Source of the DNA: Candidatus Parcubacteria bacterium
GTDB lineage: Bacteria > Patescibacteriota > Minisyncoccia > JACPXH01
Assembly (NCBI GenBank): GCA_016196625.1
Contig: JACPXH010000007.1
Span: 86,461-150,460 of the forward strand
Length of the DNA: 64,000 bases
Direction of reading: 5' to 3'
Under the pieces are notes generated by a model. That model ran no database searches, was not told where the DNA came from, and saw nothing but the letters and a program-made list of their open reading frames with translations. Shown one piece after another: positions 30,743-35,144 of the stretch (its first letter is position 1; each line of letters begins with the position of its first letter). The position numbers and the translations under genes were made by a program.

Positions 30743-31748
30743 AGAGCGTGGAGATCGCCTATGTAGATTATCTCGGACAACCTTGGCCTCAGAGCGTATC
30801 GACGTTCGGGCACCGTACGACCGCGAAGGCGTCTAGCCGAGATCCACAAGTAAATAGTTCGGTGAATCTCGAAGATGGACTTCTTCGCGGTTGTATTTTC
30901 CGAGACGCTGACTGACGCGGACAATTGAGATTGCTTCGCTGTGCTCGCAATGACGAATGCAGCCGGTGTCCCTTGAAAATTGAATAGGTAAGGTAAGTAA
31001 AAATCCAGTTATTCCTTGTTGTCCCGATCTATGGGTGTTCGGCAGCGCGCTTGGCGCGATGGCCGGACATCTTTTGAGAGTTTGATCCTAGCTCAGGATG
31101 AACGCTGGCGGCGTGGATAAGCAATGCAAGTCGTGCGAGGCCTTTTCTGAAGGAGTTGCGATTACATCAAGACGACAGATGAAATGGTCGAGCGGCGAAC
31201 GGCTTAGTAACACGTAGGAATCTGCCCCGGAGTCGGGCATAACTCGTCGAAAGGCGGGCTAATACCCGATGGTATCAGCATTGCAATTTTGATCTTTAGA
31301 ACCTTCTAGTGTCGACAAGCGCCTAGATGCTGGAAGTTGCGGCGAAGGGAAGGGAGCGCAGACTCCCTTGGTGGCGCGCACAAGTACCCCTTGACCGGTT
31401 AACCCGGGGGCCCTTCGCCTACTAATTTCTAGAGTTCAAAATTGCGATGCTGATTAAAGATGCAAATCACTCCGGGAGGAGCCTGCGGGCTATCAGCTTG
31501 TTGGCGGGGTAACGGCCCACCAAGGCTATGACGGCTAGGGGGTGTGAGAGCATGGCCCCCAAGATGGGTACTGAGACACGGACCTGACACCTACGGGTGG
31601 CTGCAGGCGAGAATATTCGGCAATGGGCGAAAGCCTGACCGAGCGACGCCGCGTGAAGGATGAAGCCCTGCGGGGTGTAAACTTCTTTTGACCGGGAGGA
31701 AGCCGCAAGGCTGACTGTACCGGTAGAATAAGGGGCTGCTAACCTCGT

Positions 31749-32101
31749 GCCAGCCCCGCACCAAACATTTGGTGGCGGGGCGACCAATGTTAGCAATACA
31801 AAACGAATCTGGTATTACCGAAAGCGCGACCTGGAGTCGCAAGGCTCCTTGAATAACTCGGCTCATATGCTGGGAACTCTGTGAGTGGCTGCAATCGTTC
31901 AACGATGCTCCAGAGCAATCAGCAGGGAAGTCGCCCCGCCCTTGGCGAGGTTGACCCCTCAGAGACTGATCCCTATCGGCGAAGTGCCGAGACGGGTGAG
32001 AACGGATGCGTGTGTATCTGTTCAGACGCCGAGCTCCGCCAATTGGCGGATGGTGGGATAGTCCATGTTCCGAAGCCAAATCCAAATGTTTTGGTAACGG
32101 G
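31749..32101 (+). mobile_element. 16S group I intron 1 (353 nt, ORF-less) near E. coli position ~516
   Basis: splits gtgccagcagc(a)gcggtaatac; contains ggctcatatgctggg and tcagagactgatc (R-like) blocks; ends with G. Confidence 0.65.
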
Positions 32102-32373
32102 GCCAGCAGCAGCGGTAATACGAGGGCCCCGAGCGTTATCCGGAATCACTGGGCGTAAAGAGTCTGTAGGGGGTCTGGTTAGTCGGGTGTGAAATTTCCG
32201 CGCTCAACGCGGAGCCCGCATCCGAAACGGCCAGACTCGAGGACGTGAGAGGCGAGTGGAATGCACGGTGTAGGGGTGAAATCCGTTGATATCGTGCAGA
32301 ACACCGAAGGCGAAGGCAGCTCGCTGGCGCGTTCCTGACCCTGAGAGACGAAAGCGTGGGGAGTGAATGGGAT

Positions 32374-33349
32374 CGGATTTGGTCCCCTCGTGCGGCGACG
32401 CACGAGCGCAAATCTGGCTATATGCTGGAACATCCGAGTATCTCACCGTACTGCGTTCAGGGCAGTAACAATCTGTGAGTGCGGATTATCAGCAGGAAAC
32501 CGTGGTAAAATGATACTATGGGATCCTCAGAGACTATACGCCGGATACCTCAAATGAATAAGGAACTCGCCATTCTGTTAGGACTTCTCTACACAGATGG
32601 TTGTGTTTCCCCAAAAGGACAAAGTTGGAGAATTTATTTCGCCGTAAAATCGCAAGTGTTAGTCAACCTTTTTCGGGATTGCATGGTAGATGTTTTCGCC
32701 CTCGAGTCTAATCGAGTGCGGATTGGCGTTACGCAAGATGGTTTAACGAGAGCCATCGTGAACTCGAAAGAGGTGGGCAACTGGTTGGTAGGCAGGTTTG
32801 GCACATTCCGAACGTTAAAGTTCGCGAATGGCCGATTGCCTCCAGCAAGACTGCCGGTGTCGCTGTTGAAAAGCACGCGACATGTAGCAGATTTCTTGCG
32901 AATTGCGTTTAGCTGTGATGGAGGCGTGAGTTTCTATTCTGCAAAACGCGACGGCAGAAATGGCGGCACCCGATGGTTAATTCGAACAGTCTTTCTCGCT
33001 TGCACACATCCGCAGTTGCGGAGAGATTATCTGAAGTTACTTTCTCAACTTGGCATCCGAGTACGAGAAGTCGCCAAAGATGGCAAGCTGAAGATGGAAA
33101 CAGAACGAGATATTCGTCTGTTTCAAGAGCGGATCGGTTTTACCGCCGGTGTTCGAGTAACGGGCAATTCCAAATTCTGGAATGGCTACGAAAAAAATGA
33201 AGTCTTGCGACTTCTGATCGCGTCGTATGGCCGGCCATCAAAGATCTACCAACTGCCTAAATTTAATGAGGTAATGATATAGTCCGAACTTCATGGCGAC
33301 ATGAAGAGACAAGTAAGACTGGGTAAATCTTGTCCGTTGTAACAACAAG
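32374..33349 (+). mobile_element. 16S group I intron 2 (976 nt) encoding LAGLIDADG endonuclease, at ~E. coli 788/789
   Basis: exon1 ends ...gggaU; exon2 tagatacccc; ggctatatgctggaacatccg, tcagagactatacgcc (R element); terminal G. Confidence 0.7.
32518..33282 (+). CDS. LAGLIDADG homing endonuclease (double-motif) inside 16S intron 2
   Basis: LAILLGLLYTDGCVS and FLRIAFSCDGGVS. Confidence 0.8.
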   Translation: MGSSETIRRIPQMNKELAILLGLLYTDGCVSPKGQSWRIYFAVKSQVLVNLFRDCMVDVFALESNRVRIGVTQDGLTRAIVNSKEVGNWLVGRFGTFRTLKFANGRLPPARLPVSLLKSTRHVADFLRIAFSCDGGVSFYSAKRDGRNGGTRWLIRTVFLACTHPQLRRDYLKLLSQLGIRVREVAKDGKLKMETERDIRLFQERIGFTAGVRVTGNSKFWNGYEKNEVLRLLIASYGRPSKIYQLPKFNEVMI

Positions 33350-33624
33350 TAGATACCCCAGTAATCCACGCCCTAAACGATGAGGACTTGTTGTGTAGAG
33401 TATCGACCCTCTACGTGGCGAAGCTAACGCGTTAAGTCCTCCGCCTGGGAAGTACGGCCGCAAGGCTAAAACTCAAAGGAATAGACGGGAGTTCGCACAA
33501 GCGGTGGAGCATGTGGTTTAATTCGACGGTAAGCGAGGAACCTTACCAGGGCTTGACATGTTCGAGTAAGGCCGCCGAAAGGTGGTCCCTCCCACAAGGA
33601 CCCGAACACAGGTGCTGCATGGCT

Positions 33625-34429
33625 ACATCCGGATACGGATGGATGGCCGGTCCGGTGGCAACATCGGATAACAATAACCAGCCCAAAACGGTGGAGCCCT
33701 CCTGGTTTTCGGAGTAAAATGGAAGCCAGTGGGTAATACCGTGGGAAGCAAGTTTATATTCAAGACAGCCGAAGACTACTACGCACTGGGTCTTTGGCTG
33801 GCGGATGGGTACTGGCGTTCAAGCTCAGTCGGCTTAACTTCGGTTGACTCTCGATTGATAGAGCGGTTTGTTCGGTTTTTACGGCGGGCGGCTCCGAGCC
33901 ATCCGCTGAAGTACCGAACGTATCACCCACTCGATGGTCGAGGGAAACGTAGACGTGTGGCGACACAAGTGTACGTAAACAGTCGGGCGTTGACCCGAAT
34001 GTTCACTGCCACGAAAACCGGAGTATTGTTCGTCCCATCGCGAAACGTTCCTGCGTATTTGGCAGGGCGGATAGATGGTGATGGGCACGTAGACGCCAAA
34101 CATCGATCGGGCATTCGGATCGCGTATGGGAACGCGTTCGATGCTCGGAGGGATCGTCGGTTGTTCGGCGCAGCCAATGTGAGCTTGTACCGGTATTCAG
34201 CTGCGAGGACGATGGTCCTTTACTTGAGGAAGCATTATCGAGAGCGCATCGAACCCGCGGTTCGAAAATTCTCGATGAAACTTGCCCCGTAGAGACTGAA
34301 TTCCGAATCAAAGCGGAATGAGAATTGTCGATCTTCGACGATTCAGACGGTTGGCATCCAGCCCCAGTTTTTCAAACTGGAGCTGGATGAAGGTATAGTC
34401 CATGCTCGTGGAAACACGGGAATATCATG
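33625..34429 (+). mobile_element. 16S group I intron 3 (805 nt) encoding LAGLIDADG endonuclease, after GCATGGCU (~E. coli 1057)
   Basis: exon junction gcatggct|gtcgtcagc; gaaggtatagtccatgc (S element); ORF begins inside conserved ataccgtgggaag block. Confidence 0.7.
33729..34292 (+). CDS. LAGLIDADG homing endonuclease inside 16S intron 3
   Basis: YALGLWLADGYW and YLAGRIDGDGHVD. Confidence 0.8.
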   Translation: MGNTVGSKFIFKTAEDYYALGLWLADGYWRSSSVGLTSVDSRLIERFVRFLRRAAPSHPLKYRTYHPLDGRGKRRRVATQVYVNSRALTRMFTATKTGVLFVPSRNVPAYLAGRIDGDGHVDAKHRSGIRIAYGNAFDARRDRRLFGAANVSLYRYSAARTMVLYLRKHYRERIEPAVRKFSMKLAP

Positions 34430-35144
34430 GTCGTCAGCTTGTGGCGTGAGTTGCTCCGTTCAGTCGGGTAACAAGCGCAACCCCTATGTGCTGTTACAGG
34501 TGTCAGCGCAAACTGCCTGCTTCAAGCAGGAGGAAGGTGGGGATGACGTCAAGTCAGCATGGCCCTTTGATGCCCTGGGCGACACACGTGCTACAATGGC
34601 CGGTACAATGGGACGCCAACCCGTAAGGGGGAGCAAATCCCACCAAAACCGGTCTCAGTCCGGATTGAGGTCTGCAACCCGACCTCATGAAGCTGGAATC
34701 GCTAGTAATCGCGGATCAGCCACGCCGCGGTGAATACGTTCCCGAACTTTGTACTCACCGCCCGTCAGGCCAGTGAAGGCGGTAATGCCGGAAATCTGGG
34801 TTTGTCCCGGATGAAGGCAGGATCGCTGACAAGGGCTAAGTCGTAACAAGGCATCGGTAGCGGAAGCTGTCGATGGATCATCTCCTTTCTAGGGAGTTCT
34901 TACCTTCTACGGTTAAGAACCGCTAGTAAGGTCAAGTGGTCGGTGCTGCGTTTGCTGCCACAAGCACGAATGCGGCGGGAGTTGGCCGATGTCCTCAACC
35001 ATCGGCTGCTCGGCCCCGAAGCGTCATTCGGGCGGTCGGGACAACGAGGAAAAACTGGAATAGCAAACCGCGCGCCCTCTTGAGGGGGCGCGCGGTTGTG
35101 TTTTATGATGCGAGGGCGCTTGGATTGCGGCGTGCAGCTAAAGC

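What the first reader, a model, noticed from the sequence alone, without database searches (positions are those of the whole stretch)
31075..34888. 16S rRNA gene of 3.8 kb: three group I introns (two with LAGLIDADG endonucleases) plus a 170-nt expansion
Introns lie at about 516 (31749-32101, ORF-less), 788/789 (32374-33349, endonuclease at 32518-33282) and 1057 (33625-34429, endonuclease at 33729-34292). In addition 31255-31445 is a closed hairpin expansion (gcattgcaattttga...tcaaaattgcgatgc) in the V2 region, giving a mature length of ~1.68 kb. Any amplicon or 16S-HMM pipeline would mis-handle this gene. This is the pattern reported for CPR bacteria, but the combination with the 23S load is extreme.
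Basis: partly seen in the sequence, partly recalled or inferred. Interest (0 to 1): 0.6.

Follow-up and report, generated by a model that had tools for sequence, protein, structure and literature searches.

The report
Intron-laden 16S gene of a Parcubacterium
This is a real 3.8-kb 16S rRNA gene from a Candidate Phyla Radiation (Parcubacteria) bacterium. It is split by three self-splicing group I introns, two of which carry homing endonuclease genes, and it has a long extra hairpin, a pattern already well documented for this group.

Summary
Rfam places a complete SSU rRNA at 31075-34886.

- **Splice-site rule:** each insertion follows a U and ends in G.
- **Intron 2 (after U788):** passes Rfam's group I threshold.
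- **Introns 1 (after U516) and 3:** both fall below that threshold. Each belongs to a family of same-site introns in metagenome contigs, and the group I fold, including the P3/P7 pseudoknot and guide-exon covariation, is strongly supported in both families.
- **ORFs:** both are intact two-motif LAGLIDADG_3 endonucleases, lying in the P8 and P6 loops.

Corrections:
- Intron 3 lies after U1060, not 1057.
- The hairpin is 31274-31454, at the tip of helix 9.
- ORF 1 most likely starts at 32554.

Whether the hairpin stays in mature rRNA is untested. Its 27-bp basal stem and the RNase III gene 3 kb upstream make excision as an intervening sequence at least as likely as retention.

The insertion load lies within published CPR ranges, so it is not extreme. 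This is a new member of a known kind and of low interest. One structural oddity in the S516 intron family, a 5'-3' terminal helix, is worth noting.

The parts
31075..34888 (+). 16S rRNA gene (3,814 nt including insertions)
   Evidence: Rfam SSU hit 31075-34886, full model. Alignment to E. coli rrsH.
31075..31748 (+). Exon 1 (E. coli 6-516); contains the helix 9 hairpin
   Evidence: The U505-A526 compensatory change across the splice junction restores the 530-loop pseudoknot.
31274..31454 (+). 181-nt closed hairpin at the tip of helix 9 (V2). A 19-bp plus 8-bp basal stem carries a branched G+C-rich distal part. It is either an RNase III-type intervening sequence or a retained expansion.
   Evidence: MFE -95.1 kcal/mol, z -7.17. 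cmscan reports a 164-nt insert here. No homologue in 129 loci. Unrelated long hairpins occupy the same site in other CPR contigs.
31749..32101 (+). Intron 1: ORF-less group I intron after U516 (S516), with P1-P9 including P7.1/P7.2
   Evidence: Rfam only 17.2 bits. Family alignment A1: 88.1% of cells paired against 39-45% in slid controls, and 37 of 70 pairs compensatory. Helix coordinates.
32102..32373 (+). Exon 2 (E. coli 517-788)
32374..33349 (+). Intron 2: group I intron between U788 and U789 (S788), with the ORF in the P8 loop
   Evidence: Rfam RF00028 57.7 bits, above the gathering score of 50. P1 GGGAU/GUCCC, P10 AUUUG/UAGAU, P2-P9.1 all fully paired. The correct P7 3' strand is 33280-33284.
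32554..33282 (+). LAGLIDADG_3 homing endonuclease gene, 242 aa, two motifs (LLGLLYTDG, IAFSCDGG). The stop codon UAG lies inside the P7 3' strand.
   Evidence: Pfam PF14528 35.2 bits. 100% identical to an NCBI protein of 'Candidatus Parcubacteria bacterium'; 144 homologues. 48% identical ORF at the same site in L071.
33350..33624 (+). Exon 3 (E. coli 789-1060)
33625..34429 (+). Intron 3: group I intron between U1060 and G1061 (S1060), with the ORF in the P6 loop and P7.1/P7.2 present
   Evidence: Rfam 28.1 bits for the 3' half only. Family alignment A2: 88.2% paired against 30-45% in slid controls, 27 of 54 pairs compensatory; the guide covaries with exon C1059U. Helices.
33729..34292 (+). LAGLIDADG_3 homing endonuclease gene, 187 aa, two motifs (LGLWLADG, LAGRIDGDG). 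The first codons overlap the P5/P4/P6 strands.
   Evidence: Pfam PF14528 32.1 bits and Hom_end 22 bits. Full-length homologues at the same site in L090 (64%), L085, L003, L016 and L017.
34430..34888 (+). Exon 4 (E. coli 1061-1541)
31005..31029 (+). 5' strand of the pre-16S processing stem
   Evidence: Pairs with 35034-35058 at 24 of 25 positions.
35034..35058 (+). 3' strand of the pre-16S processing stem
27591..28280 (+). RNase III gene (context: the enzyme needed for the intervening-sequence reading and for the processing stem)
   Evidence: Pfam Ribonucleas_3_3 130.8 bits, Ribonuclease_3 97.9 bits, dsrm 45.7 bits.

Best explanation
This is the 16S rRNA gene of a Candidate Phyla Radiation bacterium annotated as Candidatus Parcubacteria. 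It has been invaded by three group I introns at three universally conserved, functionally essential sites:
- after U516, in the 530 loop of h18;
- between U788 and U789, in the 790 loop of h24;
- between U1060 and G1061, in h34.

**How splicing would work (inferred).** After transcription each intron folds into the group I core (P3-P8 with the P3/P7 pseudoknot). An internal guide sequence pairs with the last exon bases, placing the terminal exon U opposite a guide G. The intron is then removed in two guanosine-initiated transesterifications that end at its terminal G. The exons are religated into a contiguous 16S rRNA.

**How the introns spread (inferred).** Introns 2 and 3 each carry a single-chain, two-motif LAGLIDADG_3 endonuclease gene in a peripheral loop (P8 and P6). 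These enzymes cut intron-less copies of the same rDNA site and spread the intron by homing. Intron 1 has no ORF and belongs to a widespread ORF-less S516 family.

**The hairpin (inferred, uncertain).** The 181-nt hairpin at the tip of helix 9 is a different kind of insertion. I judge it somewhat more likely (about 55%) to be cut out by the RNase III encoded 3 kb upstream. That would leave a two-piece 16S of about 200 nt and about 1.3 kb. The alternative, about 40%, is that it stays as a surface expansion.

**Shown here:** the anatomy, the family-level covariation, the intact ORFs and the presence of RNase III.

**Inferred only:** actual splicing, endonuclease activity and the fate of the hairpin.
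For: - **Gene and exon map.**. Joining the exons restores the 515-533 sequence. It also creates a U505-A526 pair where E. coli has G505-C526.
- **Splice-site rule.** All three insertions follow U and end in G.
- **Intron 2.** RF00028 scores 57.7 bits, above the gathering score of 50. A complete, fully paired helix set including P10 was checked.
- **Intron 1.** 69 of them could be delimited as S516 insertions. In the 12-member family, 88.1% of cells are paired against 39-45% when partners are slid, and 37 of 70 pairs show compensatory change. P7 is invariant. The guide tracks the host exon: CCUCGU/GCGAGG, CUCUGU/GCAGAG, CUACGU/GCGUAG, CUCCGU/GCGGAG, CUUCGU/GCGAAG.
- **Intron 3.** In a 7-member same-site family, 88.2% of cells are paired against 30-45%, and 27 of 54 pairs are compensatory. 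The guide changes GGCC to GACC where the exon changes GGCU to GGUU. One family member, L047, is an ORF-less 277-nt version.
- **ORFs.** Both exceed the Pfam LAGLIDADG_3 threshold. Full-length homologues sit at the same sites in other contigs.
- **Organism.**
- **Literature.** Insertions of 100 bp or more occur in 48% of CPR 16S genes. LAGLIDADG_3 ORFs are found only in 16S insertions. The insertions are removed from transcripts (PMC11270868; PMC9698310).
- **Hairpin.**. RNase III. Processing stem. A 16S intervening sequence with a 24-bp terminal stem is described in Helicobacter (PMC3335488).
Against: - No RNA data exist for this organism, so splicing is inferred.
- Introns 1 and 3 fail Rfam's gathering score (17.2 and 28.1 bits).
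- In the window's intron 1 the guide at the homologous position (GCGACC, 31826-31831) pairs with only 4 exon bases. The GGCUG guide for P10, present in most family members, is missing. This copy may therefore splice poorly or need help.
- The covariation structures were derived from family members and then counted on MAFFT alignments. For intron 3 the ORF loops were removed by hand. This favours the structure somewhat.
- ORF 2 has no ATG start.
- Nothing discriminates between excision and retention of the helix 9 hairpin.
Confidence: 0.85

Rival explanations
1. The helix 9 hairpin is a retained expansion segment. The mature 16S would be one 1.68-kb molecule carrying a 171-nt surface extension.
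For: - Helix 9 is peripheral. From general knowledge, it is the site of eukaryotic expansion segment ES3S, so a large insertion there is structurally tolerable.
- The distal part is G+C-rich and branched. It is not the A+T-rich low-complexity sequence seen in the hairpins of other CPR contigs.
- The fold is very stable.
Against: - A 19+8 bp near-perfect basal stem is what RNase III substrates and known rRNA intervening sequences look like.
- RNase III is encoded nearby.
- Sequence-unrelated hairpins recur at the same site in other CPR contigs. This 'uniform location, diverse sequence' pattern is typical of intervening sequences.
- CPR insertions are reported as removed from transcripts.
- No homologue was found, so no conservation argues for a ribosomal role.
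Confidence: 0.4
2. Intron 1 of this genome is a decaying copy that no longer self-splices efficiently. It would depend on a protein cofactor or splice slowly.
For: - The guide at the family-homologous position pairs with only 4 exon bases.
- The P10 guide GGCUG is absent. About 45 nt are inserted between the P1 extension and the guide.
- Its Rfam score is the lowest of the three.
Against: - The site, in the 530 loop, is essential, so an unspliced rRNA would be dead.
- CPR genomes usually have one rRNA operon.
- Core helices P3-P8 are all intact.
- An alternative 6-bp P1 (CCUCGU/GCGGGG) exists.
- L115 shares the same architecture at 77% identity, which indicates that it is maintained.
Confidence: 0.15
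3. The gene is a pseudogene or a mis-assembly: a chimera of a 16S gene with unrelated intron-bearing reads.
For: It is a metagenome-assembled sequence. rRNA genes are notoriously chimera-prone in MAGs.
Against: - The exons join into a full-length 16S with all conserved regions and a compensatory 505-526 pair.
- The guide sequences of all three introns match this gene's own exon ends.
- An independent Logan contig spans both junctions of intron 2 at 100%.
- The gene lies in an operon with a processing stem, tRNA-Ile, tRNA-Ala, 23S and 5S.
Confidence: 0.03

Closest known systems
Insertion sequences and group I introns in CPR/Patescibacteria rRNA genes (Brown et al. 2015 as summarised in PMC9698310; Tsurumaki et al. 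2024, PMC11270868)
   Same: - Host group.
- Multiple insertions per 16S gene at conserved sites.
- Group I cores.
- LAGLIDADG_3 ORFs, which that survey found only in 16S insertions.
- ORF-less and ORF-containing versions at the same site.
- Short hairpin-like insertions in variable regions.
- A heavily interrupted 23S gene as well.
   Different: Nothing categorical. Both ORFs here show two LAGLIDADG motifs by eye, whereas that survey describes CPR enzymes as mostly single-domain by Pfam count. The exact site numbering of that paper's 16IS1-10 could not be read because the figures are not held, so site identity is inferred.
[quoted passage not shown] 2012, cited in PMC4853749 and PMC3984707)
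   Same: Several group I introns in one bacterial 16S gene, some with LAGLIDADG ORFs. They lengthen the gene and defeat PCR surveys.
   Different: A different host phylum (Gammaproteobacteria). Subgroups are reported as IA3, ID and IC1. The insertion sites could not be compared because the paper is not held.
Nuclear rDNA group I introns at S516 and S788/S789 of eukaryotic microbes (from general knowledge)
   Same: The same rRNA positions, in E. coli numbering, are classic intron sites.
   Different: The CPR S516 family has a long P1 extension, usually no P9, and a 5'-3' terminal helix.
RNase III-excised intervening sequences of bacterial rRNA, e.g. the 16S intervening sequences of Helicobacter and Campylobacter (PMC3335488)
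   Same: For the helix 9 hairpin only:
- It sits in the V2 region.
- It has no ORF.
- The two ends form a stem of more than 20 bp.
- The sequence is unrelated between lineages, but the location is uniform.
   Different: Excision has not been shown. The distal part is G+C-rich rather than A+T-rich.

Membership tests
Group I intron (all three insertions) | Conserved core of paired regions P3-P8 with the P3/P7 pseudoknot | tested here: met
   Every core helix is fully paired in the window. Family covariation: 88.1% of cells paired in A1 and 88.2% in A2, with the slid controls at 30-45%. Intron 2 is aligned by Rfam.
Group I intron (all three insertions) | The 5' exon ends in U, wobble-paired to G of an internal guide sequence (P1) | tested here: met
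   T precedes each intron and a guide was found for each. The guide covaries with the host exon in the S516 and S1060 families. In the window's intron 1 the P1 is weak: 4 bp, or an alternative of 6 bp.
Group I intron (all three insertions) | Terminal G (omega G) at the 3' splice site | tested here: met
   G at 32101, 33349 and 34429.
Group I intron (all three insertions) | Score at or above the Rfam RF00028 gathering threshold (50 bits) | tested here: inconclusive
   Intron 2 scores 57.7 bits (met). Intron 3 scores 28.1 bits and intron 1 17.2 bits (not met). ORF and peripheral insertions break the model alignment.
Group I intron (all three insertions) | Guanosine-dependent self-splicing with exon ligation | not testable with these tools
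   Needs in-vitro splicing or RNA-seq.
LAGLIDADG homing endonuclease (both ORFs) | Match to a LAGLIDADG family profile above the curated threshold | tested here: met
   PF14528: 35.2 and 32.1 bits against 22.5, two stretches each.
LAGLIDADG homing endonuclease (both ORFs) | Two LAGLIDADG motifs, each ending in an acidic catalytic residue (single-chain enzyme) | tested here: met
   Read directly from the translations: LLGLLYTDG and IAFSCDGG; LGLWLADG and LAGRIDGDG. No structure was predicted. PDB sequence searches were uninformative.
LAGLIDADG homing endonuclease (both ORFs) | Cleaves the intron-less target site | not testable with these tools
   A biochemical assay is needed. A CPR enzyme of another subfamily, I-ShaI, has been shown to be active (PMC11270868).
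RNase III-type rRNA intervening sequence (helix 9 hairpin) | Insertion at the tip of a variable helix whose ends form a long double-stranded stem | tested here: met
   A 19-bp plus 8-bp stem at the tip of helix 9.
RNase III-type rRNA intervening sequence (helix 9 hairpin) | The host encodes RNase III | tested here: met
   27591-28280: Ribonuclease_3 plus dsrm domains.
RNase III-type rRNA intervening sequence (helix 9 hairpin) | Excised without religation, giving a fragmented rRNA | not testable with these tools
   Needs a Northern blot, RACE or RNA-seq.
CPR rRNA insertion-sequence phenomenon | The host is a CPR/Patescibacteria bacterium | tested here: met
   The intron-2 protein is identical to an NCBI protein of 'Candidatus Parcubacteria bacterium'. 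All genome hits to the 530-loop variant are Patescibacteria.

The most novel reading that the evidence does not exclude
The ORF-less S516 introns of CPR bacteria, including intron 1 here, may form a distinct structural variant of group I introns.

In this variant the last 10-13 nt, including the terminal G, pair with the 5' strand of the P1 extension. That terminal helix would replace P9. It would act as a strand-exchange switch: by capturing the intron's 5' strand it frees the guide for P10 with the 3' exon and so selects the 3' splice site.

A more speculative version reads the GCCAGC repeat together with the inverted ends as the footprint of DNA-level, transposon-like insertion. I put that at about 0.05.
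Probability: 0.3. Interest if true: 0.45.

Novelty: new member of a known kind. Interest (0 to 1): 0.25.

Why it matters
- **Annotation and surveys.** The gene is 2.5 times the normal length. Rfam's clan competition assigns it to the archaeal SSU model. The 515F and 806R sites each lose two bases to an intron and carry further mismatches. Organisms like this are therefore under-counted in amplicon surveys and can be mis-annotated.
- **Biology.** It adds one more well-resolved example, with exact splice sites, guide sequences and ORF placements, to the known spread of homing introns in CPR rRNA genes.
- **An open question.** Both an RNase III gene and a candidate intervening sequence are visible together in one window. 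It is still unclear whether short CPR insertions fragment the 16S or enlarge it.
- **Overall.** Nothing here overturns current understanding.

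Tried and rejected
- **Close relatives.** A genome-contig scan with a 530-loop pattern carrying the A526 variant returned only 7 Patescibacteria loci. Their exons are 72-96% identical to the window (mostly 72-85%; only the conserved first 57 nt reach 96%), and none has the S516 intron or the hairpin.
- **Hairpin homologues.** blastn of the helix 9 hairpin against all 129 fetched loci and against the rest of the window found nothing. Rfam at E<0.01 found nothing in it either.
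- **Source contig.** The exact-protein look-up of the 254-aa ORF failed. The 242-aa form is on record, but only a 1.2-kb Logan contig could be read, not the 216-kb NCBI contig.
- **PDB sequence searches** for both endonucleases gave only marginal hits: PI-SceI at E = 0.12, otherwise noise.
- **Processing stem control.** The RNAduplex energy of the whole 16S flanks was not better than shuffles (-112.9 against -105.7 +/- 8.1 kcal/mol). The stem is supported only by the 24/25-position complementarity checked directly.
- **Rfam's P3' for intron 1.** The cmscan alignment paired P3 with 31985-31990. The family alignment shows the conserved partner is 32028-33 and that the earlier copy is part of P7.1.
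- **First pair count.** It mis-nested P3 and P7 because they form a pseudoknot. It was redone with separate brackets.
- **Papers not held.** Brown et al. 2015 and Salman et al. 2012 could not be read. They are cited only through papers that summarise them.
- **Rejected readings.** Pseudogene, assembly chimera, and a group II intron (no Rfam hit).

Full report
**1. The observation**

A gathering-threshold Rfam scan of the window finds one SSU rRNA at 31075-34886 on the + strand (726.7 bits, model positions 1-1478). It is followed by:
- tRNA-Ile(GAU) at 35145;
- tRNA-Ala(UGC) at 40023;
- a 23S rRNA in three pieces, 42949-49888;
- 5S at 49954.

The cmscan alignment shows large unaligned inserts inside the SSU match.

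The remainder aligns end to end with E. coli 16S: 1,680 nt at 70% identity. The exons are 31075-31748, 32102-32373, 33350-33624 and 34430-34888.

The joined sequence restores GTGCCAGCAGCAGCGGTAA (515-533). Where it differs from E. coli (C526 to A), the pseudoknot partner has also changed (G505 to U). That is a compensatory pair spanning the first splice junction.

By the same alignment:
- Intron 1 follows U516.
- Intron 2 lies between U788 and U789.
- Intron 3 lies between U1060 and G1061.

For intron 1 a CCAGC repeat makes the junction ambiguous by sequence alone. Only the U516/G32101 choice satisfies both group I rules: a U before the intron and a G at its end. All three insertions are preceded by T and end in G.

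**2. Are they group I introns?**

*Intron 2.* It reaches Rfam's curated threshold (57.7 bits against 50). By hand I placed these helices:
- P1: GGGAU/GUCCC
- P10: AUUUG with the first five exon-3 bases
- P2: 8 bp with a GCGA loop
- P3 to P5b and P6
- P7: GACUA 32532-36 with UAGUC 33280-84
- P8: UACCUCA/UGAGGUA, enclosing the ORF
- P9: with a GCGA loop
- P9.1

Each helix is fully complementary.

*Introns 1 and 3.* These score only 17.2 and 28.1 bits, so I looked for relatives.

*The S516 family.* A metagenome scan used the pattern 'G + GCCAGCAGCNGCGGTAATAC', that is, a terminal G abutting the exon at 517. 69 of them could be delimited as S516 insertions. Several families are visible.

Intron 1 belongs to one that starts GCCAGCC... 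and ends ...GGUGNNGGG. L115 is 77% identical over its full length.

On a 12-member alignment (A1) I counted a structure of P1, P1a, P1b, P2, P3, P4, P5, P6, P7 and P8, with P3 and P7 crossing as a pseudoknot:
- 88.1% of cells are paired, against 39-45% when partners are slid by 1-3 columns.
- 37 of 70 pairs show changes on both sides.
- No shuffle out of 500 reaches the observed values.
- P2 and P5 covary at every position, and P7 is invariant.

The guide tracks the host's exon: CCUCGU/GCGAGG, CUCUGU/GCAGAG, CUACGU/GCGUAG, CUCCGU/GCGGAG, CUUCGU/GCGAAG.

The window's copy, like L115, L011 and L088, has two extra hairpins (P7.1/P7.2) between P7 and the 3' strand of P3.

Its weak point is P1. The guide at the homologous position is GCGACC, which gives 4 bp. 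There is an alternative 6-bp pairing with GCGGGG. The GGCUG guide for P10 is missing.

*The S1060 family.* For intron 3, the same set of contigs contains same-site insertions in 8 of 75 readable 16S genes. One is an ORF-less 277-nt version, L047. I removed the ORF loops to give 7 mini-introns (A2):
- 88.2% of cells are paired, against 30-45% in slid controls.
- 27 of 54 pairs are compensatory.
- P6, the stem that encloses the ORF, covaries at 8 of 11 pairs.
- Where the host exon is GGUU instead of GGCU, the guide is GACC instead of GGCC.

Caveats: both structures were derived from a family member and counted on MAFFT alignments, and the A2 sequences were edited.

Taken together, all three are group I introns. 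Self-splicing itself is inferred.

**3. The ORFs**

Both exceed the Pfam LAGLIDADG_3 threshold with two matched stretches each. Each shows two motifs ending in Asp-Gly: LLGLLYTDG and IAFSCDGG; LGLWLADG and LAGRIDGDG (translations). They are therefore single-chain, pseudo-dimeric enzymes.

*ORF 1.* It probably starts at ATG 32554, immediately after the 5' strand of P8. That 242-aa protein is 100% identical to an NCBI protein annotated 'hypothetical protein HYZ80_02450 [Candidatus Parcubacteria bacterium]'. It has 144 homologues, mostly 240-300 aa. Its stop codon is the UAG of the P7 3' strand.

*ORF 2.* It lies in the P6 loop. Its first codons overlap the conserved P5/P4/P6 strands. Full-length homologues occupy the same site in L090 (64%), L085, L003, L016 and L017.

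PDB sequence searches gave nothing useful.

The interval 31881-32192 in intron 1 has no Pfam match, so that intron is ORF-less.

**4. The V2 element**

The quoted arms (gcattgcaattttga / tcaaaattgcgatgc) are at 31278-31292 and 31436-31450. The closed hairpin runs from 31274 to 31454.

It replaces the tetraloop of helix 9. For comparison, CPR genes without an insertion read GGUCUCGCAAGAGUAAAG at this point. The short hairpin that follows (GAUGCAAAUC) is helix 10.

It folds at -95.1 kcal/mol (z = -7.2). The basal stem is 19 bp, one bulge, then 8 bp, and the distal part is branched and G+C-rich.

No homologue exists in the 129 loci or elsewhere in the window, and no Rfam family matches.

Other CPR contigs carry unrelated, near-perfect hairpins of 100-200 nt at exactly this site: L115, L083, L050, L041 and L093.

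That pattern, uniform location with diverse sequence and a stem of more than 20 bp formed by the two ends, is how 16S intervening sequences of Helicobacter and Campylobacter are described. Those are thought to be cut by RNase III (PMC3335488).

The window itself encodes a complete RNase III at 27591-28280. The 16S is also bracketed by a processing stem with 24 of 25 positions paired, 31005-31029 with 35034-35058.

Against this, helix 9 is a surface helix that carries an expansion segment in eukaryotes (general knowledge), so retention is feasible. I put excision at about 55% and retention at about 40%. Only RNA data can decide.

**5. Why the introns must be removed**

The three sites lie in the 530 loop, the 790 loop and helix 34. 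All are core decoding or interface elements (established knowledge), so an rRNA retaining these inserts could not function. CPR genomes usually have a single rRNA operon. Published metatranscriptomes show that CPR insertions are absent from transcripts.

**6. Comparison with what is known**

Tsurumaki et al. 2024 surveyed 380 CPR 16S genes:
- 48% carry insertions of 100 bp or more.
- There are up to 16 insertions per gene.
- The total length per 16S has a mean of 1,075 bp (SD 1,043) and a maximum of 5,627 bp. For 23S the maximum is 5,750 bp.
- 35% of 16S insertions hit the group I model.
- LAGLIDADG_3 ORFs occur only in 16S insertions.
- ORF-less and ORF-containing versions share sites.
- Short insertions that match no intron model sit in variable regions and may be RNase III intervening sequences.

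The present gene has about 2.3 kb of insertions and the 23S about 4 kb. Both are within those ranges, though the 23S is in the upper tail. L090 in my own sample has insertions at the same three 16S sites. The load is typical to high, not extreme.

This is a new member of a known kind.

**7. Practical claim about surveys**

- Intron 1 removes only the first two bases of the 515F site. The gene still offers GGGCCAGCAGCAGCGGTAA, with 2 mismatches.
- Intron 2 removes the two bases that pair with the 3' end of 806R. That leaves a penultimate 3' mismatch plus one more.
- The V4 amplicon lies entirely in exon 2.
- 27F has 1 mismatch and 1492R has 3.
- A full-length amplicon would be 3.8 kb.
- Rfam's clan competition prefers the archaeal model.

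**8. A side observation**

In the S516 family the last 10-13 nt of the intron, terminal G included, are complementary to the 5' strand of the P1 extension. They are a near copy of that hairpin's own 3' strand.
- The terminal pairing is usually longer (8-16 bp) than the local one (7-8 bp).
- 82.9% of cells are paired and 6 of 12 pairs are compensatory, against 38-55% in slid controls.
- Most members have no P9.
- The intron begins with GCCAGC, the same six bases that begin the 3' exon.

A strand-exchange role in choosing the 3' splice site is a reasonable hypothesis. I did not test it.

**9. Verdict**

Interest is low (0.25).

Noticed in passing
window 27591-28280 (+): A complete RNase III gene (catalytic domain plus dsRNA-binding motif) lies 3 kb upstream of the 16S. 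It sits in an rnc-rpsP-khpA-trmD row that runs up to the rRNA leader.
   Followed up: yes
window 31005-31029 with 35034-35058: Leader and spacer sequences 4 kb apart are complementary at 24 of 25 positions (2 G-U, 1 A-A). This is a classic pre-16S processing stem enclosing the whole intron-laden gene.
   Followed up: partly
window 35258-39878 and 40138-42403: The rRNA operon is broken up by protein genes.
- Between tRNA-Ile and tRNA-Ala: an APH-like kinase, a cyclophilin, an MFS fragment, two ORFs with no Pfam match and an RmlD-like reductase.
- Between tRNA-Ala and the 23S: two SAM methyltransferases and an MscS-like membrane protein.

A similar but smaller interruption is described for the Microgenomates genome Ch65 (PMC7143001).
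   Followed up: partly
window 42949-49888: The 23S rRNA gene is 6.9 kb, with about 4 kb of insertions. Rfam reports it in three pieces, with a group I hit at 46469-46736 and a LAGLIDADG_2 ORF at 46782-47453. Short stretches of 16S intron 2 match the 23S intron cores (45805-45835, 46533-46553).
   Followed up: no
window 31075-34886: Rfam's clan competition picks the archaeal SSU model (726.7 bits) as the best match for this bacterial gene. This is a concrete way for automated annotation to mislabel it.
   Followed up: no
window 31754-31765 with 32090-32101; alignment A1 (L115, L011, L088, L101, L125, L108, L016, L086, L111, L076, L023): In the S516 intron family the 3' end of the intron, including the terminal G, pairs with the 5' strand of the P1 extension and mimics that hairpin's own 3' strand. 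82.9% of cells are paired and 6 of 12 pairs are compensatory. Most members lack P9. The intron starts with the same GCCAGC as the 3' exon.
   Followed up: partly
L115, L083, L050, L041, L093, L037 (helix 9 region of their 16S genes): Other CPR 16S genes carry unrelated, near-perfect, mostly A+T-rich hairpins of 100-200 nt at the same helix 9 tip. L115 and L083 share the sequence at the base of the stem. The site looks like a hot spot for hairpin insertions.
   Followed up: partly
L090 (metagenome contig): Another CPR 16S gene has insertions at all three sites (S516, S788, S1060). Its S1060 intron and ORF are homologous to intron 3 here (65% DNA identity, 64% protein identity). The three-site combination is therefore not unique.
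   Followed up: partly
window 31743-31748 and 32108-32113: The 530-loop pseudoknot pair 505-526 is U-A here instead of the usual G-C. This adds a fixed mismatch to 515F-type primers. All 7 genome hits to a longer 530-loop pattern carrying this variant were Patescibacteria.
   Followed up: partly
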